From a virus, in IMG/VR virus record IMGVR_UViG_2565956771_000001, positions 24-64,023 of that record: a stretch of 64,000 bases of DNA. One strand, 5' to 3'. Position 1 is the stretch's first letter. Every line of letters starts with the position of its first letter. This document shows, piece by piece, positions 33,605 through 47,524 of the stretch. The translations under genes and the position numbers were made by a program. Under the pieces are notes generated by a model, which saw only the letters and a list, made by a program, of their open reading frames with translations, searched no databases and was not told where the DNA came from.

Positions 33605-34076
33605 CATGTCTGAAAAAATACTCCCACATTTACTCCCACGGATATTCTAGATCTAGGTAGCTTTGGTATCTCAAGGGCTGTGAGCTAGCGACAGCTTTGG
33701 CATAAGCAGCAACGTGGGCGTTAGTTGAAATCAGGAACTTCGGGTCCTTTTTCGGTGCGCCCAGCATGGGCGCAATCTTGTGGGAGAAGATCCCGCCGTA
33801 ATGCAAAGCCAAGCAGCAGGCGAAAGATGTGATTCATCTCTGTCGTGGAGACGCAAAGCAAGCGGCCGAGATCTATAGCCCAATAGAGGTGGTCGCTGAA
33901 CCTATGACTGCCTGGAAGCCAGGCTACGTGTACGATCCGGGGGCCTTCGACACCAACTAGTGGTCTTGATCCTAGCTCTAGCATGTGATGGGCATACTGA
34001 TAGCCATTTACCATCGGCATGGTGGTCGTTATCCTGAAGACACGAGAACAACCGGTTGTTATTTCAGGGAAAGGAT

Positions 34077-36407
34077 ATGAAGGACGTCATTGGCTTTTTT
34101 GCTTACGCGTCAACGCCTGCCGAGATAGGGCAAACCATTGAGAGTGCTGTTGCTACCAGCTCAAGAACCAATACGAAAACGGTTGTGTCTACCTGGAGGG
34201 CCTTGGACATCGTCGGTCACTTCATCTCTGACGAAGTGCTGGCAAGTATTGATGCAGCCGATTTCCTGGTTGCTGACATCAGTGAGCTAAATTTCAACGT
34301 CACGTATGAAATTGGCTACGCCCTTGGTAAATCAAAGCGCGTTCTGCTTGTCAAAAACAAAAGCCTCCAGTCGCAGGGGTTGAAAATTTCCGATGTCGGT
34401 ATTTTTGACACCCTTGGGTTTCAGGAATACCAGAACTCGCCTGAGCTGAGCGGTTTCTTGAACAACGCGTCAGCCTGGAAATCGATTGACGTGTCTGCTG
34501 CGCTCAATCTCAAGGCACCGGTTTATTTGTTGGATACACCGCACAAAACCGACTGGTCGACCCGCATCATCTCGAGAATCAAAAAGGGCGGCTTCATCTT
34601 CCGTAACTTTGATCCAAACGAAACTCCCAGGCTTTCGGCCTATGACGCGATCAATCAGGTCGCACAATCCTATGGAGTTGTGGTTCCGTTGCTATCTACT
34701 GGGGCGACAGGAGCGGCCATCCACAACATGCGAGCCGCCTTCATTGCTGGTTTGGCCGATGGCATGGGCAAGGCGATGTGCATTCTTCAGTCAGGCGATG
34801 AGCCGGTCCCAGTGGATTATCGAGACTTTGTCCAGGTTACCTACCATCCGAATGATGTTAACCGCGCCATTGAGGTGTTTGCGTCCGATGTGACCCAAGC
34901 GTTTCAGCAGCTTGAGGCTTCTGGCGCGAAACCCGAGCGGTCATTTATCAAAAAACTCAACCTCGGCGCGACATCTGCCGAGAACGAAATGCGGGATCTC
35001 GAACGTTATTATCTGGAGACCGATCAGTTTCTGAAATCGTTGCGTGGCGAGGCGCATTTGGTCGTCGGTCGTAAGGGTTCTGGAAAATCAGCCATCTTTC
35101 TTCAAATCAGGGATGCCGAGCGCGACAAAAACCGTAACAAGAATATCGTTTTGGATTTGAAGCCAGACGGCTACAAACTCATCAAATTCAAAGAACGCAT
35201 CCTTCAGTTTCTTTCCGAAGGCACCTACCAGCACACAATCACGGCGTTTTGGGAGTACGTGCTACTGCTGGAAATTTGCTACAAGATTTTGGAAAAAGAC
35301 AAACAGCGTCACATCCATGATCATAGGCTGTATGAAGGCTATCGCGAGCTCGCCGAGCTGTATCGGGGAGAAGATTACGATTCAGAAGGCGATTTTTCTG
35401 AGCGCATGTCGATGCTCATGGAGAAAATCTACTCCGAATACCAATCCAAGTACGGTTCAACCAAAAGCGTCAATCTGAGCTCATTCGAAGTGACCGAACT
35501 CCTGTACAAGCATGACGTAAAGCAACTCAAACAAAAGCTGGGACGTTACCTTGAGAACAAGCAGGTGCTATGGCTTCTCTTCGACAATATTGATAATGGC
35601 TGGCCAACGTCCGGACTGAAGCATGAAGACCTGCTTATGGTCAGAGCTTTGATCGACGCTACGCGAAAAATTGAACGTCAGTTCAGCAGCGACAACATCA
35701 AGGTGCGCTCGGTAGTGTTCCTACGCAACGACGTCTACGAGCTGCTGGTCAAGGAGACGTCTGACCGCGGCAAGGAAGCCAGTGTGGTGCTGGATTGGAC
35801 GGATTCTGACTTGTTACGCGAGCTCGTTCGTTTGCGAATCGTGTCCAACGGTCTTGAAGAAGACCTGGACTTCAAGTCGGCCTGGCTGCGGCTTTTTGTA
35901 AGCCATTACAAGGGCGAGGAAACGTCTCAGTTTCTGATAGAGCGTTCCTTGATGAGACCACGCTTTCTCTTGAATCTGATCAATCATTGCAAGAGCTTTG
36001 CCATCAACCTCAACCACGAGATTATCGAAGGCAGCGACATTGAGAAAGGCATCGCGGCCTATTCAGCGGATCTGCTGCGCGATATTGGCTACGAGCTTCA
36101 GGACGTGTCCGATGAGACTGAAGGCCTTCTCTACGCTTTCGTCGCATCATCCGCCGACCTTTCTGAGCAGCAGGTGATGGATACTCTCCTTAAGTCTGGG
36201 CTTGATCAGCAGAAGGCGAGTCGCGCGGTAGATCTGCTGCTTTGGTATGGATTCCTGGGCATTCGAATCAACTCGGACGATCCTAAGTTTATTTATGATT
36301 TTAGCTACAACAAAGCGCTCATGGACGGGGTTAAGAAGAACTCGAACCAAGCGGTCAGTCTTGTAATTAACCAGGCGTTTTGGCCAGCATTGATGATCAA
36401 CCAATAA
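34077..36407 (+). CDS. P-loop ATPase (Sll1717/FunZ-like) with two N-terminal NDT/TIR-like domains
   Basis: ADFLVADISELNFNVTYEIGYALG (NDT-like); second copy near HNMRAAFIAGLADGMGK; Walker A VVGRKGSGKS; Walker B LLFDNID; C-terminal wHTH-like LLWYGFLG. Confidence 0.82.
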   Translation: MKDVIGFFAYASTPAEIGQTIESAVATSSRTNTKTVVSTWRALDIVGHFISDEVLASIDAADFLVADISELNFNVTYEIGYALGKSKRVLLVKNKSLQSQGLKISDVGIFDTLGFQEYQNSPELSGFLNNASAWKSIDVSAALNLKAPVYLLDTPHKTDWSTRIISRIKKGGFIFRNFDPNETPRLSAYDAINQVAQSYGVVVPLLSTGATGAAIHNMRAAFIAGLADGMGKAMCILQSGDEPVPVDYRDFVQVTYHPNDVNRAIEVFASDVTQAFQQLEASGAKPERSFIKKLNLGATSAENEMRDLERYYLETDQFLKSLRGEAHLVVGRKGSGKSAIFLQIRDAERDKNRNKNIVLDLKPDGYKLIKFKERILQFLSEGTYQHTITAFWEYVLLLEICYKILEKDKQRHIHDHRLYEGYRELAELYRGEDYDSEGDFSERMSMLMEKIYSEYQSKYGSTKSVNLSSFEVTELLYKHDVKQLKQKLGRYLENKQVLWLLFDNIDNGWPTSGLKHEDLLMVRALIDATRKIERQFSSDNIKVRSVVFLRNDVYELLVKETSDRGKEASVVLDWTDSDLLRELVRLRIVSNGLEEDLDFKSAWLRLFVSHYKGEETSQFLIERSLMRPRFLLNLINHCKSFAINLNHEIIEGSDIEKGIAAYSADLLRDIGYELQDVSDETEGLLYAFVASSADLSEQQVMDTLLKSGLDQQKASRAVDLLLWYGFLGIRINSDDPKFIYDFSYNKALMDGVKKNSNQAVSLVINQAFWPALMINQ

Positions 36408-36663: not shown

Positions 36664-37920
36664 GTGATGAAGTTATGCTTTGTCGTGATGGGGTATGGCA
36701 AGAAAACCGAGTATGAGTCTGGTCGCACGCTCGACCTGAATGCAACGTACGAAACGATTATCGAGCCCGCTGTCACCAGCCGCGGCTTACGCTGCGTTCG
36801 GGCTGACGAGATCATGCAGTCGGGACTTATCGACGTAAAAATGTACGACCTGCTGCTCAGGGCTGATCTGGTCATCGCCGATATTTCCACGGGAAACGTA
36901 AACGCCGTCTACGAACTGGGAGTACGTCACGCGCTGAGACCGAATTCGACCATCGTCATGAGCGAGGACAAGGGCAAGCTGTACTTTGACCTCAATCACA
37001 TCAGCACTTTCCAGTATTCGCATTTTGGTGAGGACATTCTTGCACGTGAGGCGCGGCGCGCCACGGAGGCCCTGGGTAACCTGATTGAGGCCGTGATGGC
37101 CGCCCAGGCTATCGACAGTCCAGTTTATACGTTCCTGCCCAGGTTGCGCTCGCCGAGTATGTCGGATGAAGAGTTTGAAGAGTTGGTCGATGAAGCAGAA
37201 GCCGCTCAACAACGACTTTTTCATCACATGCGCGAAGGTGAAAAGTTGATGCGGCAGAGTCAACATCATGCTGCCAGCGTAGAGTTTGCTGCTGCAAGGG
37301 ATATGAAGCCTGGTGAGCCTGATATTTTGCAAAAGCTTGCACTGAGCACCTATAAGTCAAAGATTCCTAATGAGCTCGCCGCGCTGCGAGCTGCCATGGA
37401 AGTGCTTAGCCCCCTCAATCCTGAAAGCTCGAATGACCCCGAGACTGTTGGCATTGCGGGAGCGATCGTCAAGCGAATCTGGCTGCTTGAGGGTGATAGA
37501 GCTTCACTTGACTCCGCCATTGCTTTTTATCGCCGAGGCTTTGAGGTCAAGCGTGACTATTACAACGGCGAAAACCTTGCGCTGTGCTTCGAGTTTCGAG
37601 CGCAAATACAAACAGAAGACGCGGAGAGAATGTTCGACTTCATGTGCGCGCAGAAAATCCGTGAAGCGATTTTGAGGATTCTGTTGCCTGTGCTGGAGTC
37701 TCCCGATTTCATTGAACGCAGCGACAGACGCTGGGTGTATGCGACTTTGGCCAACTGCTATTTTGCGGTCGGAGACGCCACGCAAGCCGAGACGTTCGAG
37801 AATCATTTTATGGGAGCCTTCATTGCTCAATGGGAGGTTGATACTTATCAGGCGGGCAAAAGTCACGTGTTAGCAACCCGAGAGAAACGGCTCGCAGCGG
37901 TGGCCCCGTCTCAGCACTGA
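36664..37920 (+). CDS. NDT-like domain plus DUF4071/TRAF-binding-type TPR protein
   Basis: LCFVVMGYG...ADLVIADISTGNVNAVYELGVRHALR; helical repeats DPETVGIAGAIVKR, YYNGENLA. Confidence 0.8.
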   Translation: MMKLCFVVMGYGKKTEYESGRTLDLNATYETIIEPAVTSRGLRCVRADEIMQSGLIDVKMYDLLLRADLVIADISTGNVNAVYELGVRHALRPNSTIVMSEDKGKLYFDLNHISTFQYSHFGEDILAREARRATEALGNLIEAVMAAQAIDSPVYTFLPRLRSPSMSDEEFEELVDEAEAAQQRLFHHMREGEKLMRQSQHHAASVEFAAARDMKPGEPDILQKLALSTYKSKIPNELAALRAAMEVLSPLNPESSNDPETVGIAGAIVKRIWLLEGDRASLDSAIAFYRRGFEVKRDYYNGENLALCFEFRAQIQTEDAERMFDFMCAQKIREAILRILLPVLESPDFIERSDRRWVYATLANCYFAVGDATQAETFENHFMGAFIAQWEVDTYQAGKSHVLATREKRLAAVAPSQH

Positions 37921-37975
37921 CCGTTTGAGGTTATCGACAATGCTCAACCAACGACTTCAAGAAAGGAACAGCGAA

Positions 37976-38455
37976 ATGGGGTTGCCCAGAACATTCGTCG
38001 GCTTCAGCAGCACAGACCGACACATGTATGAACTGATGGGGGCGTGGAAGAAAAACACTCGGATCGATTTTGATTTCGCCGACTGCCAGTTGAACATGGC
38101 GTTGAACTCGGAAGACGAGGATTACATCAAGCGCAAATGCCGGGAAAGGATTGATATGGCCGGCACCTTCGCACTGCTGATTGGCAGGGACACGCGTTCG
38201 AAACACAAATACGTGCGTTGGGAGATACAGGTAGCGATAGAGAAGGGGTGCAAGCTCATCGGCATCAACCTGGACGGAGCCCGCCAGGTGAATGCTGATC
38301 TTTGCCCTCCCATCCTGCAGGACGTTGGGGCAGTGTTCGTCCCGTATTCCCCTGCCATTATTGCTCATGCCCTGGCGAACCCCACGGCAAGTGAGCGTGG
38401 CAACTATTTCTATCCGCCAGCCGTGTATCAAAAACTCGGCTATGAGGTTCCTTGA
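37976..38455 (+). CDS. TIR-domain protein (ThsB/DUF1863-like)
   Basis: RTFVGFSSTD...EDEDYIKRKCRERI...LLIGRDT...YVRWEIQVA (catalytic Glu). Confidence 0.88.
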   Translation: MGLPRTFVGFSSTDRHMYELMGAWKKNTRIDFDFADCQLNMALNSEDEDYIKRKCRERIDMAGTFALLIGRDTRSKHKYVRWEIQVAIEKGCKLIGINLDGARQVNADLCPPILQDVGAVFVPYSPAIIAHALANPTASERGNYFYPPAVYQKLGYEVP

Positions 38456-39318
38456 TGCAGATTTCTGATTTCCCTGGTCTCTATCAGGCCGCCGATGAGC
38501 TGTCGGGTTCCGCTCAGAAGCATTTTCTTGCCGCGCTGCTCACTAACCTGGCGCTGTTGGTGGTGGCCGCAGTCGTCTCGGTTATCAATTATCCTCACTG
38601 GGGTGCAGCGGCCCTGCAGGCGGCTCTTTTAGCCGGCGCATTAGCCAGCTCTGTGTATTTGGCGACACAGCGGCCTGAGCGGCTTTGGTATTCGGGGCGT
38701 GCCGTCGCCGAATCAATCAAAACCATGGTGTGGCGCTACGTGTCCCGCGCAGAGCCTTTTCATGAAAGCGACGAGGCGGCCAAGAAGCATTTGCTGGCAA
38801 AGCTTACGCAAGTGGTTGAGCAAAACCCAGGCGTGTCGAACAAGCTGCTCACGCATCTGCCGGCCCAGCAAATTACGTACAAGATGAAGCTGATGAGGGC
38901 CGGTGATTTCGAAACCCGGCGCGATACGTACATCGAATCCCGGATCAACGACCAACTGGGATGGTATTCACGTAAAGCTAACTTCAACGCCCAGGCCGCC
39001 AAGTATTTCTTCATTACATTGATCGCCGTTAACGCCATCGCTTTTGGATGTGCGCTGATCAAGATCGCCAACGTGGAATACCAATACTTTCCGACTGACG
39101 TGCTGATCGCTGTTGCAGCAAGTATTCTGACGTGGATGCAGGCAAAACGCTTCACTGAGCTATCGGCGTCTTACGCACTGACTGCGCATGAGATTACGCT
39201 TATACGTGAACAGGCCGATGAGCTGAAAAAAGATGAGCATTTGTCGACATTTGTAGGTGACGCTGAGAACGCATTTTCTCGTGAGCACACTCAGTGGGAG
39301 GCAAGGAAGGACAACTGA
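38455..39318 (+). CDS. SLATT/DUF4231 membrane effector (two 2-TM modules)
   Basis: Four hydrophobic segments; WYSGRAVAESIK; RINDQLGWY; ENAFSREHTQW; start overlaps the TIR stop. Confidence 0.87.
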   Translation: MQISDFPGLYQAADELSGSAQKHFLAALLTNLALLVVAAVVSVINYPHWGAAALQAALLAGALASSVYLATQRPERLWYSGRAVAESIKTMVWRYVSRAEPFHESDEAAKKHLLAKLTQVVEQNPGVSNKLLTHLPAQQITYKMKLMRAGDFETRRDTYIESRINDQLGWYSRKANFNAQAAKYFFITLIAVNAIAFGCALIKIANVEYQYFPTDVLIAVAASILTWMQAKRFTELSASYALTAHEITLIREQADELKKDEHLSTFVGDAENAFSREHTQWEARKDN

Positions 39319-39395: not shown

Positions 39396-39866
39396 TTATT
39401 TAAGCTCGTCGGAGAGCTTCGACCAGGGTACGGTTTTGATCTTGTGTTCCGATACCCATTTAGGCTCAGCTGCGCCGAACTGCTTACCGGAATGCACAGC
39501 TACAACCTTCTTGCCAAGCTCTAGGCTCTTTTCTACCTCCCATTTCACCCACTTGCTCTGGGCAGTGTCCTTGGAAATGAAGACCACAGTGATAGATGAG
39601 CGGTTGATGCGCTCGGCGATCTTGCGCTTGATGTACTCCGCCTGCTCACTGTCGTAGGGTTCGCGGACTGAATGATCATTGAACTCGATGTCATTGTTAT
39701 CGTTTTTTGCCTGTCCCCTGAGCAGATTGACCTCAGCCATGTCCTCAGTGGCAAAACTGATGAACACGTTGCGCTTGCCCTCATTTAGAGCAGCCTTGGC
39801 TTTTTGCTCCAGTGACCTGACATCACCGAGTCGGCTCCATCCACCTGTGCTGCTACCGCCCATCAT
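39396..39866 (-). CDS. TIR-domain protein (ThsB-like) with a Gly-rich N-terminal tail
   Basis: (M)MGGSSTGGWS...; NVFISFATED...AEYIKRKIAERINRSSITVVFIS...WVKWEVEKS; GAGGG RBS inside the end of the queC-like gene. Confidence 0.88.
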   Translation of the reverse strand: MMGGSSTGGWSRLGDVRSLEQKAKAALNEGKRNVFISFATEDMAEVNLLRGQAKNDNNDIEFNDHSVREPYDSEQAEYIKRKIAERINRSSITVVFISKDTAQSKWVKWEVEKSLELGKKVVAVHSGKQFGAAEPKWVSEHKIKTVPWSKLSDELK

Positions 39867-40455
39867 TGGCACCCTCAAATTTGAATTCGTTGCAGGCGAT
39901 ACAGTTGCCGCACGGCTGTTCTTCACCCAGGTGGCACGAGTAGGTCTGAGAGATGCCTTTCTCGGCTGCCAGCGTCACGACGTCAGGTTTGGTGAACGAT
40001 GAGAGCGGTGCAAGCACCTTGATATTCCGGCCCATGCATAGAGTTATCATGCGCTCAGCCTCCTCGAGGAATCCGGAGGTCTGATCAGGAAAAAGGCTGG
40101 TGCTTTCGTGAAGCAATCCGATGGAGATCGCATCGGCGTTTTTCTGATGGGCGTAAGCGGCGGCGGTCAACAGAAAAAGCATGTTCCGGCCGGGAGTGAA
40201 GGCGTCGTCAATGATGTGCAAGGTCGGGTCGGTGAGTCCCGAGCGAATCAACCTGCCAAATCCCGACAGACCGGCAATTTCGGGCTCAGGAAGTCCAAGC
40301 TTCTGCATGGCCAGCTTGCAGGCTGCGAGCTCTCGGTCGCGGGCGCGTTGACCATAATCTACAAAGAGTGGAAATATCTGCAGGCCTTGCTCCTGTGCCA
40401 ACTTGGCGACGAGCGTAGAGTCTAGGCCTCCGGAAACCAGTGTCACGATACTCAT
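39853..40455 (-). CDS. QueC-like PP-loop ATPase (7-cyano-7-deazaguanine synthase family; Cap9/QatC-like)
   Basis: SGGLDS, FVDYGQR, PGRNMLFL, zinc site SCHLGEEQPCGNCIAC. Confidence 0.92.
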   Translation of the reverse strand: MSIVTLVSGGLDSTLVAKLAQEQGLQIFPLFVDYGQRARDRELAACKLAMQKLGLPEPEIAGLSGFGRLIRSGLTDPTLHIIDDAFTPGRNMLFLLTAAAYAHQKNADAISIGLLHESTSLFPDQTSGFLEEAERMITLCMGRNIKVLAPLSSFTKPDVVTLAAEKGISQTYSCHLGEEQPCGNCIACNEFKFEGANDGR

Positions 40456-41150
40456 ACTAAAACAGCCTCCTGCTTGCGATTTGCAACGCGCATAACGATC
40501 CATATGGCCCAATCCAAAAGACCAACCGGGCAATCCATTTCCCGGGCATGGTCACGAAGCCTGTCTTCATGCCTGCCATACTGATTCAATCCGGATATGG
40601 ATACCTGAGTGCCTGAATATATCCCCTGAGCAGACATGTAATTGAGCACGTGCCGATCAAGGATTGCCAAGTCATAAGTAACCCCGCAATTGCGCAAAAA
40701 CATACTGGCTTGCTTGGGCCCCATACCGGATGCATGGGCCACTAGCCACGCGCGTACATCACTGACGTCACCACTGATCAGCGCCTTGAGTGAGCCGCCA
40801 ATGCTTGCTACGGCCGCCCACGTGGACGCTAAGTGACCGGCTTTTGCCCTGGGAAACCTGTAAGTGCGCATTTTGCCGTCGACAACGAGAGGGGTTCTGA
40901 GCACTTCAAACAATTTCTCGGCAAGGTGCTCGCTGTGTTGTTTGTTGTGATAAAGATAGCCACGTTCATCGATGGCATCGGCGGCTGCCATAGCGAGCGG
41001 GTAGGGGACCTGGCTACTGAGAATGCAGCAAGAAAGCTCCCACCATAGATGACGCTCGTCAGACACTGCGCCGGCTTCGATGCGTGTGCGAATATCTGGA
41101 CAGACCGCAGCGACAGCTCTGCAGAGCGCTTCAGCGCTATAAGTGGTCAT
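40452..41150 (-). CDS. OGG-like N-glycosylase/AP lyase (HhH; Cap11-like)
   Basis: ELSCCILSSQ, YRFPRAKA, GMGPKQASMFLRN, AILDRHVL, DWAIW. Confidence 0.85.
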   Translation of the reverse strand: MTTYSAEALCRAVAAVCPDIRTRIEAGAVSDERHLWWELSCCILSSQVPYPLAMAAADAIDERGYLYHNKQHSEHLAEKLFEVLRTPLVVDGKMRTYRFPRAKAGHLASTWAAVASIGGSLKALISGDVSDVRAWLVAHASGMGPKQASMFLRNCGVTYDLAILDRHVLNYMSAQGIYSGTQVSISGLNQYGRHEDRLRDHAREMDCPVGLLDWAIWIVMRVANRKQEAVLV

Positions 41151-42529
41151 AGAAAAATTCCTGGGAATAGCGATCGAAGCTCGGCGCTTTTCATGCCGGT
41201 AACTCCCATGGCGAACGGTTCTTCGCGGCCTTTCGAATACATGTCACGCATGATTCGGCCAAACTCCGCATAATACTCTAGATTGTGGAACGCAACCTTG
41301 CCTGCGTAGCCTATGTTGTTGTTTGCCATCACCCTATCCATAAATTCACTTCGGATCCTTTTCGTTTTGAAAAAGTCGAAGTGTTGGAAGTGGTGAAGCC
41401 GCTCAAGCTCAGGATCTACCGCAAACCGACACCACTCAAGACCGTCGAACGTGTCCGCGCCAGCGGCCGCCAGTAGTGCAATGCTCCACGGGTTTCCAGT
41501 GCCCAGTAGATGAATGGGTTGATAATAGGGCAGCTTGTCCAGTTCATCCCTGATATGTCTGACAGTCAATGCACGCTGCGCAAGGCCCGCACCCAGTTCC
41601 CTTTCCGGAATGGCGATGATAGGCGGTTGCAGGTGCTCGGATATCGCCCTGACGATCCGAGGAAGTCTTTCGAGCCCCTTAGGGGTCTGCTTGACGTGAA
41701 TGATGGGTAGCACCGGAGCAGAGGTGTGCTTGGCGTCGCGCTCCACTGCTTTTATGACCTGCCTGACCGCCACTTCGAATTTGTCACTGGGGGTCATGTT
41801 GTCAAAACAGAACGCCCAATCGTGTGGCGTATCGGTTAGCGCGCGCTTCAGGTTCGATGGCTTCCACTGTTTGTCATTCAGGCGGTAAGCCTCATAATTG
41901 CCCGAGTCGATGAGAACAAAACCGCCTAGGTCTCGATAGGTCGTTATTTCAGCAATCATCTTGTGTCGCGATTCAGAATTAACCAGGTCATAGGCAGAAA
42001 CAAGAATCGAGCGCGTCGGATACACCGTTAATGCTTCCAACGCTTCTACGGGATCGAACTGTGTCTCGTGTGACGAAACAGACATGAAGACATTAGGAAG
42101 GGCAAGCGCACCGTCAGCTATCGTGGCTAACCGGACGGGCTTACCCTGAGGAGGTACAACGAGCCCGATTTTCTTCTGCAGCAACTGAAAGCATGAGTGA
42201 TCTGCTTCGCCCTGCCATGACCGGAAATCAACACTGCTGAAGTGACCATATGGGTACGGCGGATCACTGTCATCCAAAATGAGAGGGACGACCTTCTTTT
42301 GATATTTTTCTGCCAAGCTCAACTCGCCAGTGATGGTGTGCTTGTGAGCAAATGAGGAATATAGAGCAACGACGCATTTCGCTTCTTTGAGATTTTCTGT
42401 AATCGCGACACTGAAGTCGCCAACTATCAAATCGTCTAGCCACACGCTCCAGGACGCGGAGAGGAGATCGCGAACCTTCAGCGCTGTCTTGCTATTTTCT
42501 TTGGCATATATGATATAGACGTCCGCCAT
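41147..42529 (-). CDS. TIR domain fused to a tRNA-guanine transglycosylase (TGT)-like barrel (Cap10-like)
   Basis: N-terminal DVYIIYA...VWLD...VVALYS...GEL; TGT motifs LIDSGNYE, FCFD, PIIH, IHLLGTG, ADTFDG. Confidence 0.82.
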   Translation of the reverse strand: MADVYIIYAKENSKTALKVRDLLSASWSVWLDDLIVGDFSVAITENLKEAKCVVALYSSFAHKHTITGELSLAEKYQKKVVPLILDDSDPPYPYGHFSSVDFRSWQGEADHSCFQLLQKKIGLVVPPQGKPVRLATIADGALALPNVFMSVSSHETQFDPVEALEALTVYPTRSILVSAYDLVNSESRHKMIAEITTYRDLGGFVLIDSGNYEAYRLNDKQWKPSNLKRALTDTPHDWAFCFDNMTPSDKFEVAVRQVIKAVERDAKHTSAPVLPIIHVKQTPKGLERLPRIVRAISEHLQPPIIAIPERELGAGLAQRALTVRHIRDELDKLPYYQPIHLLGTGNPWSIALLAAAGADTFDGLEWCRFAVDPELERLHHFQHFDFFKTKRIRSEFMDRVMANNNIGYAGKVAFHNLEYYAEFGRIMRDMYSKGREEPFAMGVTGMKSAELRSLFPGIFL

Positions 42530-42602: not shown

Positions 42603-43757
42603 TCAGTGAGTGGCAGCGGCTTCGCCAGCAGCCCAGACTGCGAGGTACATTGCTGTCGTGAAGTCATCCGTTGTCTCTGTTGCAACGGTTAATACACTCG
42701 CGGCAGTAGTGCGCTCGTGGAGTGTGATGATCGGAATTGATCGGGCTCGGTCTTCTGCAATTCGTGCCAGGGACTCCACCGACAACTCATCATTTATTAC
42801 CAAGGTCGCATCCGTATTCCAGCCAGCGTTTGCCACTTCAATCTGTGGACATGTCACATCAACACCCAGTTCGCGCAATGCAAACCGGGCTTCTTCCATC
42901 GTGTATCGCTGTCCTAGTGAATCAACACCACCTTCAAGACGAACCCTGCCACCTCTCCAAGATGAGATAGGCTGACGTTGCTTGAGGATGGATTCATCAA
43001 ACTCGAACGCACGGGTATCGCAATAGACAGATACCGACCGTGACGCCAGATCTGCAGCTTGGTGAGGCGGCAGTTCGCCTTGCGCCCAATGAACCGCAAA
43101 TACGGCAGTAAATATGTCACCTGTTCCGATTTTAAAAACACTGCTGGAACGATAAGCCGGTATGTGTGAAATCTTGCCTACACCCTCGTAAACTGAGGCG
43201 CCACGTGCACCTTGTTTGATCACGACAACCTGTGCGCGTTGTTTTTTCAGCAGGTGTTGCGCCGCTAAGTGCAACTCATCGATTCCAGTTATCTGGCGCA
43301 CTTCCAGTTCATTCATTACTAGGGCCAATTCTCTGGCCGTCGACCCATTGGCTCCAAACGATGGCGGGTTATGCCAGGTTTGCGGGTCGTATACGGCCCG
43401 ATTCGCCGTGACCACCGCATCTCCCTCAAGAAAGCCGAAGCGCAAAACGGCGTTCCCAGTCACCGATATCGAGTTTTCGCGGTTGATGGACGCGCGGGGT
43501 GGCTCAATATGGGGCGAAGAAAGGGGGTGGAAATACGCAAAGACTATTGGCGATGGCCTGGTAGCGGCATGCGTGATGATTCCCTGCGACTCCAGCGAAA
43601 CCAATGCGGAGCGATCAGCGGGGGAGGCATAAGTGGAAAACTCGACACCCGAAGCCAGTGCGTTGGCGGCCAAGGCAGCGCGACCTCCAGAGCCCAGCGT
43701 AGAGTCCCAGAACGGTACATCACATAACTCGCGATATAGACCACCAACGATGTGCAT
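42603..43757 (-). CDS. PfkB/ribokinase-family kinase with a C-terminal degenerate NDT-like domain
   Basis: MHIVGG...LGSGGRAA; VVIKQGARG; FKIGTGDIFTA; tail LGQRYTMEEARFALRELGVDVTCP. Confidence 0.82.
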   Translation of the reverse strand: MHIVGGLYRELCDVPFWDSTLGSGGRAALAANALASGVEFSTYASPADRSALVSLESQGIITHAATRPSPIVFAYFHPLSSPHIEPPRASINRENSISVTGNAVLRFGFLEGDAVVTANRAVYDPQTWHNPPSFGANGSTARELALVMNELEVRQITGIDELHLAAQHLLKKQRAQVVVIKQGARGASVYEGVGKISHIPAYRSSSVFKIGTGDIFTAVFAVHWAQGELPPHQAADLASRSVSVYCDTRAFEFDESILKQRQPISSWRGGRVRLEGGVDSLGQRYTMEEARFALRELGVDVTCPQIEVANAGWNTDATLVINDELSVESLARIAEDRARSIPIITLHERTTAASVLTVATETTDDFTTAMYLAVWAAGEAAATH

Positions 43758-44155
43758 TCCGTGCCCTCGGTCAGTCTTACGTCGGATCGGCAGCCAATGC
43801 ATCGCTTCAGAGACTGAAGTTCAGATGATTTGCTCTTTAACGCATATCGCATCATGCCCTACAAAAAAAGCCTGAAAACCAGCAGCCACATAGTCGCTGC
43901 GCGGCGAACGACAACGATCGTCGATTGACACTTCGGTCGATCAAGCTCACGTCCTCGAGGCCCGATGATGCTGCACGAGTATAGGTGTCATGATGATATT
44001 ATCGTCAAGCAGGGCGCCCCAAAAAACTTTGAGACTAAGCCAATCAACCATCGAACTCTATGAGCTCCTGGAGAGCGGCAACGGAACGGTTCAGTAATGA
44101 GCGCTGCCCCGAGTTGATTGTGCATGTCGAGCACCCAATGGGATGCTACGGAGAT

Positions 44156-45886
44156 TTAAGCTTTTTCGAGCTTAAGAAAGGGATTATCGGTAGGTACGGC
44201 CGCAGCTTTGAACAATAGTGCTGGTTCTTCTAGCAAATAGCCTTTGAGTTTTGCCTTCTTACGGGGACCTTCGACCTGACAAGCCCAGATATTTAGACCG
44301 TCGTCACGCTTCCTGTGGACCTTCAATTTTTCGAATTGCTTCTGCACCCAACGCCATTCTTCAGTCTCTTGATTGGCACCCTGAGAGATACCAGGGAACT
44401 CCTGCGCATAGCGTTGGAAGAGACCAGGCGTGACCAGAAATACGCTGCCACTCACCGTGTGGATTTTGGCCTTGCTGTCATTGATGACCAGTTTGTGGCT
44501 CAGGATGCTTTCCTTGACCCAATTCAAGAATGCCTGGCCAGGGTTATTCGAAGGAGGATTTGAGATTTCGAGAGCGTTTGCTGACGGTGCATCACGTGCC
44601 TCGGGTTCTGCCATTTCGAACATATCCAGCAACGCTCCTAAGTAGTCGGCATCTTCCGTGGCTACGGGATCTGGCTGTGATGGGCTTTGATCTGATCCTC
44701 TACTGACAACCTTGGGTGCTAGTGGCGATGCCGGAGCGTCAGTTGAGTGGTCATCGACTGCGAAGCTTACCGTTCCGCTGAAAGCTTCAGGTCGGTCTTC
44801 GTTCGCCCAAATCAACGCCGGTTGAAGGCGCAGAAAGGTAAAGCTCTGCTGCCAGTTTCCCTGCGTGACAAGCGCAGTCCAGATGGCTTTGCCTTCCGGC
44901 GTGGACTCAACCAATCCATGCGATTGCAGTTCGTCGAACACAGCAATGTTGGACGACGGAATGCCTTCTATCGCTTGTGAAAGCAAATAAGCTCGGAGTT
45001 TGTCCGTGACTGCCTTACTAACCAACCACAGGGAGTCCTGGGTCAGCCATCCCGCGGCCCCTGGCTGGTTGAGTTTCAGCTCGTGCTGAACGAGATGACG
45101 CAGTCCGCTGATCAAGTGATGTTGCAGCGTATGAATCGGCGCTTGCAACGCCTTGCTTGGGTTGCCACCGATGTTCTGTGCGGTGGAGACCCGGTCGGCT
45201 TGAATCACCAACTCGCCCAGCACGCCGGCGCGTTCATACTGGCCGGCTAGGACATACAGCAGACTCGCCCACAGCGGCGGAAAGCCACTCAGCCAATCGA
45301 GGATCGGTCGGTTGAGAATCTGGGTGTAGAGCAAGCCTGCGGCGGCGCCGTGCAGGTGATAATCGCGACCTTTGAGGTAGCGAAAGCGGTAGGGCTGATC
45401 CAGGGGACCCTGCCAAGGATGCCAAACACGGCCATCCTGGCGTTCGACTAGCAGGTCCACGGCGATCTTGCCGATGTCATGCAGAAGGGCACCATAAGCA
45501 ATACCCGCCGACCAGGCATCGGTCTGGGCGGCTTGGTCTTCGGGCGCAGCGCCGGTTGGCAGCAGATACGACTGACGCAGTTTCAAACTGCAAGCGACCA
45601 GTTCCAGTCCATGGTCGAGCATGCCGCCAAGGTAAGCATGGTGGTGCGTCTCGCTGGCAGGCAGTTGCTGGACCTGTTCGGCGTAGCGATGGATCGGATT
45701 TATATAGAGCTGGGTGAACTGCGCGTGGGAGAGGGCGGTGTACTGCCAGATGCGGTCGAGCAACTGGCGGCGGTGTTCCGCGGCTAACAAACTGTGAGCC
45801 GACTCGATGGGCAGGTAACCTTCGGCGACGTTGACGGTCGGTGGCGGAGGGGGCTTCTGCCTTTTGCGGCGAAACAGGCTGAGCAT
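44156..45886 (-). CDS. traI: MobH-family relaxase (TraI_2)
   Basis: LPASETHHHAYLGGMLDHGLE and LLHDIGK (HD domain); VWHPWQGPL. Confidence 0.93.
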   Translation of the reverse strand: MLSLFRRKRQKPPPPPTVNVAEGYLPIESAHSLLAAEHRRQLLDRIWQYTALSHAQFTQLYINPIHRYAEQVQQLPASETHHHAYLGGMLDHGLELVACSLKLRQSYLLPTGAAPEDQAAQTDAWSAGIAYGALLHDIGKIAVDLLVERQDGRVWHPWQGPLDQPYRFRYLKGRDYHLHGAAAGLLYTQILNRPILDWLSGFPPLWASLLYVLAGQYERAGVLGELVIQADRVSTAQNIGGNPSKALQAPIHTLQHHLISGLRHLVQHELKLNQPGAAGWLTQDSLWLVSKAVTDKLRAYLLSQAIEGIPSSNIAVFDELQSHGLVESTPEGKAIWTALVTQGNWQQSFTFLRLQPALIWANEDRPEAFSGTVSFAVDDHSTDAPASPLAPKVVSRGSDQSPSQPDPVATEDADYLGALLDMFEMAEPEARDAPSANALEISNPPSNNPGQAFLNWVKESILSHKLVINDSKAKIHTVSGSVFLVTPGLFQRYAQEFPGISQGANQETEEWRWVQKQFEKLKVHRKRDDGLNIWACQVEGPRKKAKLKGYLLEEPALLFKAAAVPTDNPFLKLEKA

Positions 45887-46433: not shown

Positions 46434-47393
46434 TCAAGCTCCATCGTTCATGCATAGTGAGTCATCCAAGACCGCTTGCTTCAGTTGCTGCTCCAGGTTG
46501 AGTACATACTCCGAGGCGCTTCGGGCCTGGCCACTGGCGCGGAAGATCGCGCGTTTGTCAGCCTTGAGCAGGCCGAGCCAGGAGTCAATGTAGCCCTCGT
46601 GCCTAAGTTCTCCCTGTATACCGGTGTAGGCACATAAAAACGCAGCGCCCATCTCGGCGATCAACTCCTCAAACGCGTAGCCTGGCGAGCCGAACGGACA
46701 GGCTGACGTCATGCCTTCGCGCTGCAACCGAGAGTGATGCCCGGTCCAGTGCGTCAGCTCATGAAGTGCCGTGGCGTAGTACCCGCCTTCATCGTGAAAT
46801 TGTGCTTTTGTCGGCAGTTGGATGAGATCCCTGATCGGGTGGTAAAAGGCTTCGTCGGCAGGCCGATGAACGATGCGTGCACCTGAACTTAATAGCAGAT
46901 TTTCCGCGGCGCTGTTGGGCTGGAAGGGATCACTCTGTTCCGTCTCGAGCAGGGTTTCATTGAGCATTTCGAGCCCCTCCGTTTGCTCGATGTTGAACAG
47001 AAAATGTGTCCTGAGAATGCCGAAGTGAGCGACCTTGGGTTGACCGTTTTCATCGAGTACGGGTTGGCCTGACTCGGTCTGTTCCTCGCGCTCCATCGGC
47101 TTGTAGAGCACCGCCAGAGTGCTGTGCTCACCCTTACGAATGTGCCCACCGGTCTTTTTGGCTTGGTTGAAGGTCAGCCAACGATCTTGAGTGAACCCCT
47201 GCAACCTGGCCTCGGCCCAGAGCAGCGGTAAATTGATGCCCGAATACGGACGTCGTGTGATGGCGTTGACGGGGTAGGGTTGATGACCGATGTAAGCGGA
47301 GCCACTTGAGGACCAGGGTTTGATCCAGGGAGCAACGCCTTGGTCTAACGCGGTAACGATCTTGTCAGTTACGTCTTGGTAGATATCGCGCAT
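46434..47393 (-). CDS. ardC: ArdC antirestriction protein (DUF1738 plus zincin-like domain)
   Basis: DIYQDVTDKI...APWIKPW; YSGINL; WLTFNQA; ALHELTHWTGH; YAFEELIAE. Confidence 0.92.
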   Translation of the reverse strand: MRDIYQDVTDKIVTALDQGVAPWIKPWSSSGSAYIGHQPYPVNAITRRPYSGINLPLLWAEARLQGFTQDRWLTFNQAKKTGGHIRKGEHSTLAVLYKPMEREEQTESGQPVLDENGQPKVAHFGILRTHFLFNIEQTEGLEMLNETLLETEQSDPFQPNSAAENLLLSSGARIVHRPADEAFYHPIRDLIQLPTKAQFHDEGGYYATALHELTHWTGHHSRLQREGMTSACPFGSPGYAFEELIAEMGAAFLCAYTGIQGELRHEGYIDSWLGLLKADKRAIFRASGQARSASEYVLNLEQQLKQAVLDDSLCMNDGA

Positions 47394-47524
47394 GGCAATT
47401 TCCTCGAGAGAAAACGGAGGAACGCCTTGCCCGTCGGGGGAGGGTTCCCCGGTTGGGTGATGGGTTGGATTGATGCAGGTCTTGCATGCCGCCCGAATGT
47501 GGAGGTGGGCGCCGCCCATTGCGC

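What the first reader, a model, noticed from the sequence alone, without database searches (positions are those of the whole stretch)
39836..39876. TIR protein begins M-G-G-S-S-T-G-G: predicted N-terminal glycine acceptor for the neighbouring QueC-like enzyme
Seen: the minus strand reads GAGGG-TGCCA-ATG-ATG-GGC-GGT-AGC-AGC-ACA-GGT-GGA, with RBS and start embedded in the last codons of the QueC-like gene. The true start is therefore 39863/39866, not the ORF-track 39926. Removing Met would expose Gly on a flexible tail about 25-30 residues ahead of the TIR core. Established (from recall, verify): Cap9 in type IV CBASS conjugates a deazaguanine base to the N-terminal glycine of its cyclase, and QatB presents a Gly-starting N-terminal tail to QatC. 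Inference: this TIR is a new substrate class for nucleobase-protein conjugation.
Basis: partly seen in the sequence, partly recalled or inferred. Interest (0 to 1): 0.9.

Follow-up and report, generated by a model that had tools for sequence, protein, structure and literature searches.

The report
Glycine-tailed TIR beside QueC-like ligase
A small bacterial immune TIR enzyme really does begin Met-Gly-Gly on a floppy tail, right after a QueC-like gene. This is the arrangement in which a related enzyme is known to attach a deazaguanine base to a protein's first glycine, but a 2025 preprint already predicted such TIR operons, so this is a well-supported new example rather than a new kind.

Summary
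The TIR gene starts at the second ATG (39863), giving a 155-aa protein that begins MGGSSTGGW. A GAGGG ribosome-binding site lies 8 nt upstream, inside the last codons of the QueC-like gene.

- **Conservation:** All 27 distinct QueC-linked TIR homologues examined, down to 33% identity and including an archaeal MAG, start MG(G/S). The TIR core begins about 27-43 residues further in.
- **Specificity:** None of 34 ThsB-like TIRs without a QueC neighbour has this start (Fisher p below 1e-15; the sequences are related, so this overstates independence).
- **Operon:** The order is ribokinase-like, TIR-TGT, OGG, QueC, TIR, with no CD-NTase. The QueC keeps the catalytic motifs of Cap9. The TGT domain's best solved match is Cap10, and four of five Cap10 pocket or catalytic residues are invariant.
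- **Most likely mechanism (0.72):** Met is removed, the QueC-like enzyme ligates 7-carboxy-7-deazaguanine to Gly2, and the tagged tail docks in the TGT domain. This would control a Thoeris-type signal to SLATT or TPR-S effectors.

No chemistry is shown, and complex modelling was not available. Yirmiya et al. (bioRxiv, Dec 2025) already report Thoeris operons with cap9/10/11 and model TIR-Cap9/10 binding. I therefore class this as a new member of a known, still untested kind. The scan's other notes on this locus come from this same window.

The parts
39396..39863 (-). ThsB-type TIR protein, 155 aa plus stop, beginning MGGSSTGGW. Proposed acceptor of the deazaguanine tag on Gly2.
   Evidence: Pfam ThsB_TIR 2.3e-25. 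M1, G2, G3 and the catalytic-motif W108 and E109 are invariant in 16 homologues. The start is fixed by comparison with homologous loci.
39774..39863 (-). N-terminal extension, residues 1-30: a Gly/Ser-rich tail (1-14) followed by an amphipathic helix (15-27), ahead of TIR strand beta-A.
   Evidence: AF2 model: coil 1-14, helix 15-27, pLDDT below 50 for residues 1-29. Solved ThsB TIR structures align only from residue 30-31 onward. In 50%-identity cluster representatives that start MGG, beta-A begins 27-43 residues from the start, where the motif was found (28 of 35).
39872..39876 (-). Shine-Dalgarno-like GAGGG, 8 nt before ATG 39863, inside the QueC-like coding sequence.
   Evidence: Sequence read. 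A GAGG or GGAGG lies at the same distance in 18 loci.
39853..40455 (-). QueC-family (Cap9-like) ATP-dependent ligase, 200 aa. The true start is ATG 40455 (MSIVTLVSGGLDS), which overlaps the OGG stop as ATGA.
   Evidence: Pfam QueC 1.7e-39. PDB hits are QueC 2pg3 and Cap9 9nto. The score is below the NCBIfam QueC equivalog cut-off, 128.5 against 150.3 bits. The start is conserved in 16 loci.
40452..41150 (-). OGG-like HhH glycosylase (Cap11-like), 232 aa. Its start overlaps the TIR-TGT stop as ATGA.
   Evidence: Pfam Ogg-HhH 2.4e-24. Present in 16 of the 17 loci that cover its position, and missing in L014.
41147..42529 (-). Fusion of an N-terminal TIR_2 domain (about residues 1-120) with a Cap10-like TGT barrel (about 140-460).
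   Evidence: Pfam TIR_2 and TGT, and PADLOC TGT 1.6e-22. The best PDB match is Cap10 9ntn. D208, S209, D243, H340, D362 and the TIR residue E69 are invariant.
42603..43757 (-). Ribokinase-family (PfkB) protein with an extra C-terminal alpha/beta domain, 384 aa. The conserved start is MHIVGG, not the ORF-track start at 43802.
   Evidence: Pfam PfkB 3e-12. AF2 pLDDT 87, and Foldseek finds ribokinase, pseudouridine kinase and nucleoside kinase. The GTGD and NxxE motifs are invariant. It lies upstream of TIR-TGT in 16 of 16 loci with enough flank.
38452..39318 (+). SLATT_3 plus SLATT_1 two-transmembrane protein, the probable membrane effector (ThsH-like). It is convergent with the TIR gene, with the stops 77 nt apart.
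   Evidence: Pfam 1.4e-43 and 1.2e-36. A homologue lies next to the Gly-tailed TIR in 12 of 18 loci, in either orientation, and directly downstream on the same strand in L006, L009, L016 and L018. In L053 a shorter SLATT_1/DUF4231 protein lies directly downstream.
37925..38455 (+). Second ThsB-type TIR (conserved start MGLPRTF) with no N-terminal tail, paired with SLATT. It serves as an internal negative control for the tail.
   Evidence: Pfam ThsB_TIR 2.6e-14 and PADLOC ThsB 2.2e-40. The N-termini of its homologues are shown.
36664..37920 (+). TPR-S protein of 418 aa, a possible second effector or sensor (ThsI-like).
   Evidence: Pfam TPR-S 1.8e-20. Homologous TPR-S proteins lie directly downstream of the Gly-tailed TIR in L011 and L012, and next to the second TIR in L002.

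Best explanation
This is a Thoeris-type (TIR-signalling) anti-phage system that uses the ancillary machinery of type IV CBASS, with a ThsB-like TIR in place of the cyclase.

1. Translation of the TIR starts at ATG 39863 and is coupled to the end of the QueC-like gene. This is shown by sequence and comparison.
2. Methionine aminopeptidase removes Met1 and exposes Gly2 on a roughly 14-residue flexible tail followed by a helix. The Met-removal rule is established, and the tail comes from the model.
3. The QueC/Cap9-like enzyme adenylates 7-carboxy-7-deazaguanine supplied by the host queuosine pathway. It uses the Gly2 amine instead of ammonia as nucleophile, giving an N-terminal 7-amido-7-deazaguanine tag. 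This is inferred by analogy.
4. The tagged tail then binds the nucleobase pocket of the Cap10-like TGT domain of the TIR-TGT protein. That holds or primes the TIR until infection. The OGG-like protein acts as a reversing or negative regulator. This is inferred.
5. On activation the TIR makes a cADPR-type signal that opens the SLATT membrane effector or, in other loci, a TPR-S effector. This is inferred from Thoeris types VII and VIII.
For: **Start and tail**
- The start codon and ribosome-binding site are conserved in 18 loci, several of which have no alternative start.
- M1, G2 and G3 are invariant.
- All of the 120 closest cluster representatives carry the MGG start, directly or after a short extra leader (a second Met in three, a longer called 5' extension in four).
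- The tail matches the type IV CBASS cyclase motif M(G/S)G(G/S)GG. It has the same tail-plus-helix layout as CdnD, whose tail peptide is GGSGGSFGSGFDPR.

**Specificity**
- In 401 Pseudomonadota genomes, the 4 QueC-linked TIRs all start MGG, and 0 of 34 unlinked ThsB-like ORFs do.
- Five distant relatives at 33-44% identity that start MGG or MGS all lie directly after a QueC gene.
- A tail-less relative has no QueC neighbour.
- Fisher p is between 1.9e-16 and 1.6e-18.

**QueC-like enzyme**
- SGGLDS, GRN (Cap9 R86), PD (Cap9 D117) and four Zn cysteines are invariant.
- Its YxQ(x)5E spacing lacks the canonical His, as in Cap9 (with motif definitions from PMC13329287).
- It scores below the NCBIfam QueC equivalog cut-off.
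- Hosts G001 and G003 carry a separate canonical QueC.

**TGT domain**
- Its best solved match is Cap10. The equivalents of Cap10 D73, S74, D122, H226 and D248 are invariant.
- It has no CxCxxC zinc motif.

**Context**
- No CD-NTase was found in the 82.6-kb record or in the host genome of the near-identical locus L001 (G001).
- Independent AF3 modelling of such operons by Yirmiya et al. supports binding of the TIR to Cap9 and Cap10.
Against: - There is no chemical evidence for any modification on a TIR, here or in the literature.
- The complex could not be modelled.
- By sequence the QueC-like protein is closer to canonical QueC (93 bits) than to Cap9 (62 bits), so free preQ0 synthesis is not excluded.
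- Cap10 K154 has no aligned equivalent.
- This window has two adjacent ATGs. A product started at 39866 (MMGG) would not expose Gly.
- The linked and unlinked TIRs are not phylogenetically independent, so the p-value overstates the evidence.
- The role of the conserved ribokinase-like gene and of the TIR fused to TGT has no counterpart in the CBASS model.
Confidence: 0.72

Rival explanations
1. The QueC-like, TGT-like and OGG-like enzymes act on a free base or on nucleic acid, for example by making preQ0 and inserting or removing a 7-deazaguanine in DNA or RNA as Dpd-type systems do. The Gly-rich tail of the TIR would then be only a flexible docking arm that is not covalently modified.
For: - By sequence the QueC-like protein is nearer to canonical QueC than to Cap9.
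- It keeps an FPD motif in place of YPD, and a Y-to-F change retains partial QueC activity (PMC13329287).
- OGG and TGT are nucleic-acid enzymes in their canonical forms.
Against: - The TGT domain's best solved match is Cap10, not a tRNA or DNA transglycosylase, and it lacks the zinc motif.
- The QueC scores below the equivalog cut-off and lacks the canonical His.
- The strict MG(G/S) start is kept while the rest of the tail drifts. A mere linker would not be expected to show this.
- The genes are translationally coupled.
Confidence: 0.1
2. Gly2 is modified by the QueC-like enzyme, but with a different adduct or outcome from the one in type IV CBASS. For example, the tag could be elaborated onto a ribosyl compound by the TIR-TGT and ribokinase-like proteins, or a carboxylate other than CDG could be ligated.
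For: - A ribokinase-fold protein with intact GTGD and NxxE motifs lies upstream in 16 of 16 loci of this subfamily.
- A TIR domain with an invariant Glu is fused to the TGT barrel.
- The target of Cap10 transfer is still unknown.
Against: - Deeper branches of the same TIR-QueC module lack both the kinase and the fusion, so these parts are not needed for the core reaction.
- The nucleobase-recognition residues of Cap10 are conserved.
Confidence: 0.13
3. The MGG start is an annotation or chance feature. Translation would begin at GTG 39926 or ATG 39866, and the N-terminus would have no special role.
For: The longest ORF starts at 39926, and an ATG at 39866 also follows the GAGGG, at a distance of 5 nt.
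Against: - In-frame stops lie 4-5 codons upstream of the MGG ATG in several homologues, with no other start between.
- Gene callers in public data give 155 aa products starting MGG in almost all clusters.
- The association with QueC is complete.
Confidence: 0.03

Closest known systems
Thoeris operons with cap9/cap10/cap11 ancillary genes (Yirmiya et al., bioRxiv 10.64898/2025.12.03.692087, Fig. 6G and S10B)
   Same: - A ThsB-type TIR and an effector sit next to QueC-like, TGT-like and OGG-like genes.
- The TIR is predicted to bind Cap9 and Cap10 as the CBASS cyclase does.
- Their example comes from a Pseudomonadales bacterium.
   Different: - The held text of the preprint gives no N-terminal motif analysis, no experiment on these operons, and no mention of a ribokinase-like gene. 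It says nothing on whether a TIR is fused to Cap10.
- The present work adds the start-codon mapping, the exclusive link between the MG(G/S) start and QueC, and the residue-level comparison with Cap9 and Cap10.
Type IV CBASS (CD-NTase with Cap9, Cap10, Cap11; Wassarman et al. 2025, PDB 9nto and 9ntn)
   Same: - The ancillary trio is present.
- The acceptor has a Met-Gly-Gly Gly/Ser-rich tail followed by a helix.
- Cap9 ATP-loop and base-contact residues are conserved.
- Cap10 pocket and catalytic residues are conserved.
   Different: - The signal synthase is a TIR, not a CD-NTase.
- The Cap10 homologue carries an extra N-terminal TIR domain.
- A ribokinase-like gene heads the operon.
- The QueC homologue is 200 aa and less reduced than Cap9.
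QatABCD (QatC QueC-family enzyme acting on the QatB N-terminal MGTS tail)
   Same: A QueC-family enzyme is paired with a partner protein that needs a flexible tail starting with Gly2.
   Different: - QatC is about 400 aa with a remodelled active site and extra domains.
- No QatA ATPase or QatD TatD nuclease is present here.
- No TGT or OGG is present in Qat.
Thoeris types VII and VIII (ThsB with the SLATT effector ThsH, or with the CMP-hydrolase/TPR effector ThsI; signal is canonical cADPR)
   Same: A ThsB TIR lies next to a SLATT protein and a TPR-S protein. These effectors recur beside the Gly-tailed TIR in other genomes.
   Different: - Those systems are two-gene operons without QueC, TGT or OGG, and their TIRs have no Gly tail.
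- The signal made by the Gly-tailed TIR is unknown.
QueC family 'Cluster 4' of Libby et al. 2026 (PMC13329287), paired with a PfkB-Nuc_deoxyrib_tr protein and called purine salvage
   Same: A short QueC paralogue, mostly in Proteobacteria, sits in an operon with a PfkB-fold protein that carries a C-terminal nucleoside-deoxyribosyltransferase-like domain.
   Different: - The Cluster 4 zinc motif, CH(x)5CxxCxGCxK, differs from the CH(x)6CxxCxxC seen here.
- Its listed neighbours do not include TIR, TGT or OGG.
- Whether the two groups are related could not be tested, because no sequences were available.

Membership tests
Type IV CBASS | CD-NTase (SMODS) signal synthase in the operon | tested here: not met
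   No SMODS domain was found in any operon protein. PF18144 found nothing in the 82.6-kb record or in host genome G001.
Type IV CBASS | Cap9: QueC-fold enzyme with an SxGxDS loop, a Zn-cysteine motif and NDG-contact residues (R86, D117) | tested here: met
   S8, D12, S13, R90, D124, C174, C182, C185 and C188 are invariant in 14 homologues.
Type IV CBASS | Cap10: TGT-fold protein with nucleobase-reading D73, S74, D122 and K154, and the catalytic pair H226/D248 | tested here: met
   D208, S209, D243, H340 and D362 align to D73, S74, D122, H226 and D248 and are invariant. K154 has no aligned Lys, so that one residue is inconclusive.
Type IV CBASS | Acceptor protein begins M(G/S)G(G/S)GG on a flexible N-terminal extension | tested here: met
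   The window protein begins MGGSSTGG. M1, G2 and G3 are invariant, and the tail is unstructured in the model.
Type IV CBASS | Covalent 7-amido-7-deazaguanine on Gly2 (+176 Da) | not testable with these tools
   This needs mass spectrometry.
Thoeris with Cap9/10/11 (Yirmiya 2025) | ThsB-type TIR with a catalytic Glu, adjacent to cap9, cap10 and cap11 homologues | tested here: met
   ThsB_TIR 2.3e-25, and W108/E109 are invariant. The gene order is conserved in 16 loci and in deep branches.
Thoeris with Cap9/10/11 (Yirmiya 2025) | Effector gene that responds to the TIR signal | tested here: inconclusive
   A SLATT gene is adjacent here and in 12 of 18 loci, and a TPR-S protein, a further TIR protein or a hydrolase is adjacent in others. 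Response to a signal was not testable.
Thoeris with Cap9/10/11 (Yirmiya 2025) | Predicted TIR-Cap9 and TIR-Cap10 complexes | not testable with these tools
Canonical QueC (preQ0 synthase) | Score above the NCBIfam TIGR00364 equivalog cut-off, and a YxQxHxxE motif | tested here: not met
   The score is 128.5 bits against a cut-off of 150.3. The motif reads YGQRARDRE: the His is replaced and the spacing is one residue longer, as in Cap9.
QatABCD | QatC of about 400 aa with N- and C-terminal extensions, plus QatA ATPase and QatD TatD nuclease | tested here: not met
   The QueC-like protein is 200 aa, and no KAP NTPase or TatD is present in the operon.

The most novel reading that the evidence does not exclude
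In this subfamily the Cap10-like barrel is fused to a TIR with a conserved catalytic-motif Glu, and the operon is always headed by an apparently active ribokinase-fold protein with a small C-terminal alpha/beta domain (not identified here; an earlier scan note read it as NDT-like). Every added part handles ribosyl or N-glycosidic bonds. The tagged TIR may therefore be joined through N9 of its deazaguanine to a ribosyl donor such as NAD+/ADP-ribose or a phosphoribosyl compound. That would make a protein-linked 7-deazaguanine nucleotide. It would also name the still unknown acceptor of Cap10 transfer in type IV CBASS.
Probability: 0.12. Interest if true: 0.85.

Novelty: new member of a known kind. 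Interest (0 to 1): 0.45.

Why it matters
Protein deazaguanylation has so far been shown on one substrate, a CD-NTase, and is strongly suspected on a second, QatB.

If a TIR signal synthase is a third substrate, the tag would be a general way of priming bacterial immune-signal enzymes. It would parallel the way Cap2/Cap3 conjugation serves both CBASS and Thoeris.

This family is common: more than 1,400 clusters at 90% identity, from Pseudomonas, Klebsiella, Salmonella and Agrobacterium to Geobacter and an archaeal MAG. It is compact and carried on mobile elements, so it is a practical system for the missing experiment.

Its extra parts, the ribokinase-like protein and the TIR fused to Cap10, may give a handle on the open question of what Cap10 transfers the tagged protein onto.

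Tried and rejected
- **Complex prediction.** No verdict on binding was obtained.
- **Relatives of the window's genome.** These could not be drawn because the record is classed as a virus record. I used the genome of L001 as the centre instead.
- **PDB search with the N-terminal 44 residues.** It gave only spurious matches.
- **TIR, TGT or OGG neighbours in the supplement of the QueC-family paper.** None were found. Only the PfkB-Nuc_deoxyrib_tr pairing of its Cluster 4 turned up.
- **Other proteins as the acceptor.** The second ThsB (start MGLPRTF) also begins Met-Gly, but it has only about four residues before the TIR core, and its Met-Gly start is not kept in the Rhizobiales loci. The PfkB-like, TIR-TGT and OGG proteins start MH, MA and MT.
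- **Start at 39926.** Rejected on the basis of conservation.
- **Tree of TIR-linked QueC against Cap9 and canonical QueC.** Not attempted, because no Cap9 sequences were available as session objects.
Full report
**1. Observation**

On the minus strand the sequence GAGGG-TGCCA-ATG-ATG-GGC-GGT-AGC-AGC-ACA-GGT-GGA is present at 39876-39840. The QueC-like reading frame runs through it and stops at TAG 39855-39853. The ribosome-binding site and the start of the TIR gene therefore lie inside the last QueC codons. The longest ORF (GTG 39926) is not the gene.

- In 18 related genome loci every TIR gene begins ATG-GGN-GG, with GAGG or GGAGG 7-9 nt upstream.
- In several loci an in-frame stop lies only 4-5 codons upstream with no other start codon between.
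- Nearly all homologues have a single Met and 155 residues.

The start in the window is therefore ATG 39863. The ATG at 39866 is a local extra that also occurs in L001 and L017. This matters because, under the established methionine-excision rule, Met-Gly is processed and Met-Met is not.

**2. Anatomy of the locus**

The minus-strand genes are, in order:

| Coordinates | Product | Size |
|---|---|---|
| 42603-43757 | PfkB/ribokinase-like protein with an extra C-terminal domain | 384 aa |
| 41147-42529 | TIR_2 domain fused to a TGT barrel | 460 aa |
| 40452-41150 | OGG-like glycosylase | 232 aa |
| 39853-40455 | QueC-like protein | 200 aa |
| 39396-39863 | ThsB-type TIR | 155 aa |

The junctions TIR-TGT/OGG and OGG/QueC are ATGA overlaps, and QueC/TIR overlaps by 11 nt. 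The last four genes therefore look translationally coupled. No CD-NTase is present in the operon, in the 82.6-kb record, or in the host genome of the near-identical locus L001 (G001).

On the plus strand, converging on the TIR gene, are a TPR-S protein, a second ThsB TIR and a SLATT membrane protein. A TraI_2 relaxase lies upstream. The island therefore sits on conjugative-element DNA, even though the record is classed as viral.

**3. The tail is conserved and specific to QueC linkage**

The TIR family has 1,408 clusters at 90% identity. All of the best 120 carry MGG, directly at the called start or after a short extra leader, and nearly all then have Gly/Ser/Asn-rich residues and a Trp.

- In an alignment of 16 homologues M1, G2 and G3 are invariant, as are W108 and E109 of the TIR catalytic motif.
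- The five-gene order is kept in 16 of 16 loci with enough flank, except that OGG is missing in L014. The hosts are Pseudomonas, Halomonas, Rhizobiales, Agrobacterium, Geobacter, Trichloromonas and Rhodobacteraceae. A short contig from an archaeal MAG (L018) keeps QueC, TIR and SLATT.
- Among the 150 nearest 50%-identity representatives, 35 start MGG. Where the beta-A motif was found (28 of the 35) it begins 27-43 residues from the start. Most of the remainder begin the TIR core within 1-8 residues.
- Five distant representatives that start MGG or MGS (33-44% identity) all lie directly after a QueC gene. Their contexts are TGT-OGG-QueC-TIR, TIR-TGT-OGG-QueC-TIR, or SLATT-like-TGT-QueC-TIR.
- A tail-less representative has no QueC nearby.
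- In a sample of 401 Pseudomonadota genomes, 4 TIRs had QueC directly upstream and all start MGG. Thirty-four other ThsB-like ORFs had no QueC immediately upstream, and none starts MGG.
- Overall, 27 distinct linked proteins stand against 34 unlinked ones, with Fisher p below 1e-15.

The sequences are related, so this is not a true probability. Even so, the rest of the tail has diverged freely while MG(G/S) has not.

The AF2 model shows coil at 1-14 and a helix at 15-27, both at low confidence, with the TIR core from residue 32. Solved ThsB structures align only from residue 30-31 onward.

**4. The neighbouring enzymes resemble Cap9 and Cap10**

The QueC-like protein matches QueC 2pg3 and Cap9 9nto.

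- Invariant residues include the ATP loop S8/D12/S13 (Cap9 S18/D22/S23), G89-R90-N91 (Cap9 R86), P123-D124 (Cap9 D117) and four zinc cysteines.
- Its motif YGQRARDRE has the Cap9-type YxQ(x)5E spacing and lacks the His of the canonical YxQxHxxE. The motif definitions come from PMC13329287.
- It scores 128.5 bits against the NCBIfam QueC equivalog, whose cut-off is 150.3.
- Hosts G001 and G003 carry a separate canonical QueC.

The TGT domain's best solved match is Cap10 9ntn, ahead of archaeosine TGT.

- The equivalents of Cap10 D73, S74, D122, H226 and D248 are D208, S209, D243, H340 and D362. All are invariant.
- K154 has no aligned Lys.
- There is no CxCxxC zinc site. Cap10 has likewise lost the TGT zinc site.

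**5. What is known**

- Wassarman et al. showed that Cap9 ligates 7-carboxy-7-deazaguanine to Gly2 of the type IV CBASS cyclase. The tagged tail binds Cap10, all such cyclases begin M(G/S)G(G/S)GG, and G2D or tail deletion abolishes defence.
- QatB has an essential MGTS tail that sits in QatC.
- Yirmiya et al. (December 2025 preprint) report Thoeris operons with cap9, cap10 and cap11. Their AlphaFold3 models have ThsB bound to Cap10 (ipTM 0.79) and Cap9 (0.62). They did no experiment on these operons. The held text has no N-terminal motif analysis and mentions no ribokinase-like gene.
- The same paper assigns SLATT (ThsH) and CMP-hydrolase/TPR (ThsI) effectors to canonical cADPR signalling.
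- No other paper in the library links TIR to deazaguanylation.

**6. Most likely mechanism (confidence 0.72)**

Translation starts at 39863 and Met1 is removed. The Cap9-like enzyme then ligates deazaguanine to Gly2, and the tagged tail docks in the Cap10-like barrel of TIR-TGT. The OGG-like protein acts as a regulator. Activation leads to a TIR-made signal that triggers SLATT or TPR-S effectors.

- Shown: the start, the tail, its conservation, its exclusive link to QueC, and the conserved catalytic residues.
- Inferred: every chemical step, the signal and the effector.

**7. Rivals**

- The enzymes act on a free base or on nucleic acid, and the tail is only a docking arm (0.10).
- Gly2 is modified, but with a different or further elaborated adduct that involves the ribokinase-like and fused TIR parts (0.13).
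- The start is wrong (0.03).

**8. Novelty and interest**

The locus is a new, well-characterised member of that predicted kind. New here are:

- the exact start;
- the quantitative link between the MG(G/S) start and QueC;
- the residue-level match to Cap9 and Cap10;
- the observation that this subfamily always adds a ribokinase-like protein and fuses a TIR to Cap10.

The pairing of a QueC paralogue with a PfkB-NDT protein echoes 'Cluster 4' of Libby et al., which they called purine salvage. That parallel may deserve a second look. I score interest at 0.45.

**9. Earlier scan notes**

They are not independent evidence. They gave me the lead to check the plus-strand genes.

Noticed in passing
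window 42603-43757 (-): A ribokinase-fold protein (AF2 pLDDT 87; Foldseek finds ribokinase, pseudouridine kinase and nucleoside kinase) has invariant GTGD and NxxE motifs and an extra C-terminal alpha/beta domain of about 110 aa. It heads the operon in 16 of 16 loci of this subfamily, but is absent from the deeper TIR-QueC loci that have a stand-alone TGT. It resembles the PfkB-Nuc_deoxyrib_tr partner of QueC 'Cluster 4' in PMC13329287.
   Followed up: partly
window 41147-42529 (-): The Cap10-like TGT barrel carries an N-terminal TIR_2 domain with invariant W30, D32, S58 and E69, so that TIR may be catalytically active. Distant loci (L055-L058) have the barrel alone, while L054 has the fusion.
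   Followed up: partly
window 36664-39318 (+): A cassette of TPR-S protein, tail-less ThsB TIR and SLATT converges on the Gly-tailed TIR gene. SLATT or TPR-S genes recur beside the Gly-tailed TIR in other genomes, sometimes without the second TIR. The effector may therefore be shared between the two operons.
   Followed up: partly
window 34056-36407 (+): A 783-aa protein has a weak Nuc_deoxyrib_tr match (residues 56-115) and a weak AAA_22 match. It may be a further defence gene in the same island.
   Followed up: no
window 44156-45886 (-) and 46434-47519 (-): A TraI_2 relaxase lies here, together with a protein that from its sequence alone looks ArdC-like (not checked against any family library). 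This part of a record classed as viral (82.6 kb, IMG/VR) is therefore conjugative-element DNA.
   Followed up: no
window 39853-40533 and 42603-43802 (-): The ORF-track starts of the QueC-like gene (TTG 40533) and the PfkB-like gene (ATG 43802) are too far upstream. The conserved starts are ATG 40455 (MSIVTLVSGG) and ATG 43757 (MHIVGG).
   Followed up: yes
L008:6074-7220: In the Pseudomonas sp. UBA5706 MAG the ribokinase-like gene matches in two frames, with the break near residue 150. This is either a frameshift or an assembly error.
   Followed up: no
P0127, P0270 (cluster representatives): P0127 (226 aa) reads from a QueC C-terminus into the TIR as one ORF. P0270 (283 aa) joins a TGT-like N-terminus to a TIR. 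These are either real fusions or gene-calling artefacts in the same family.
   Followed up: no
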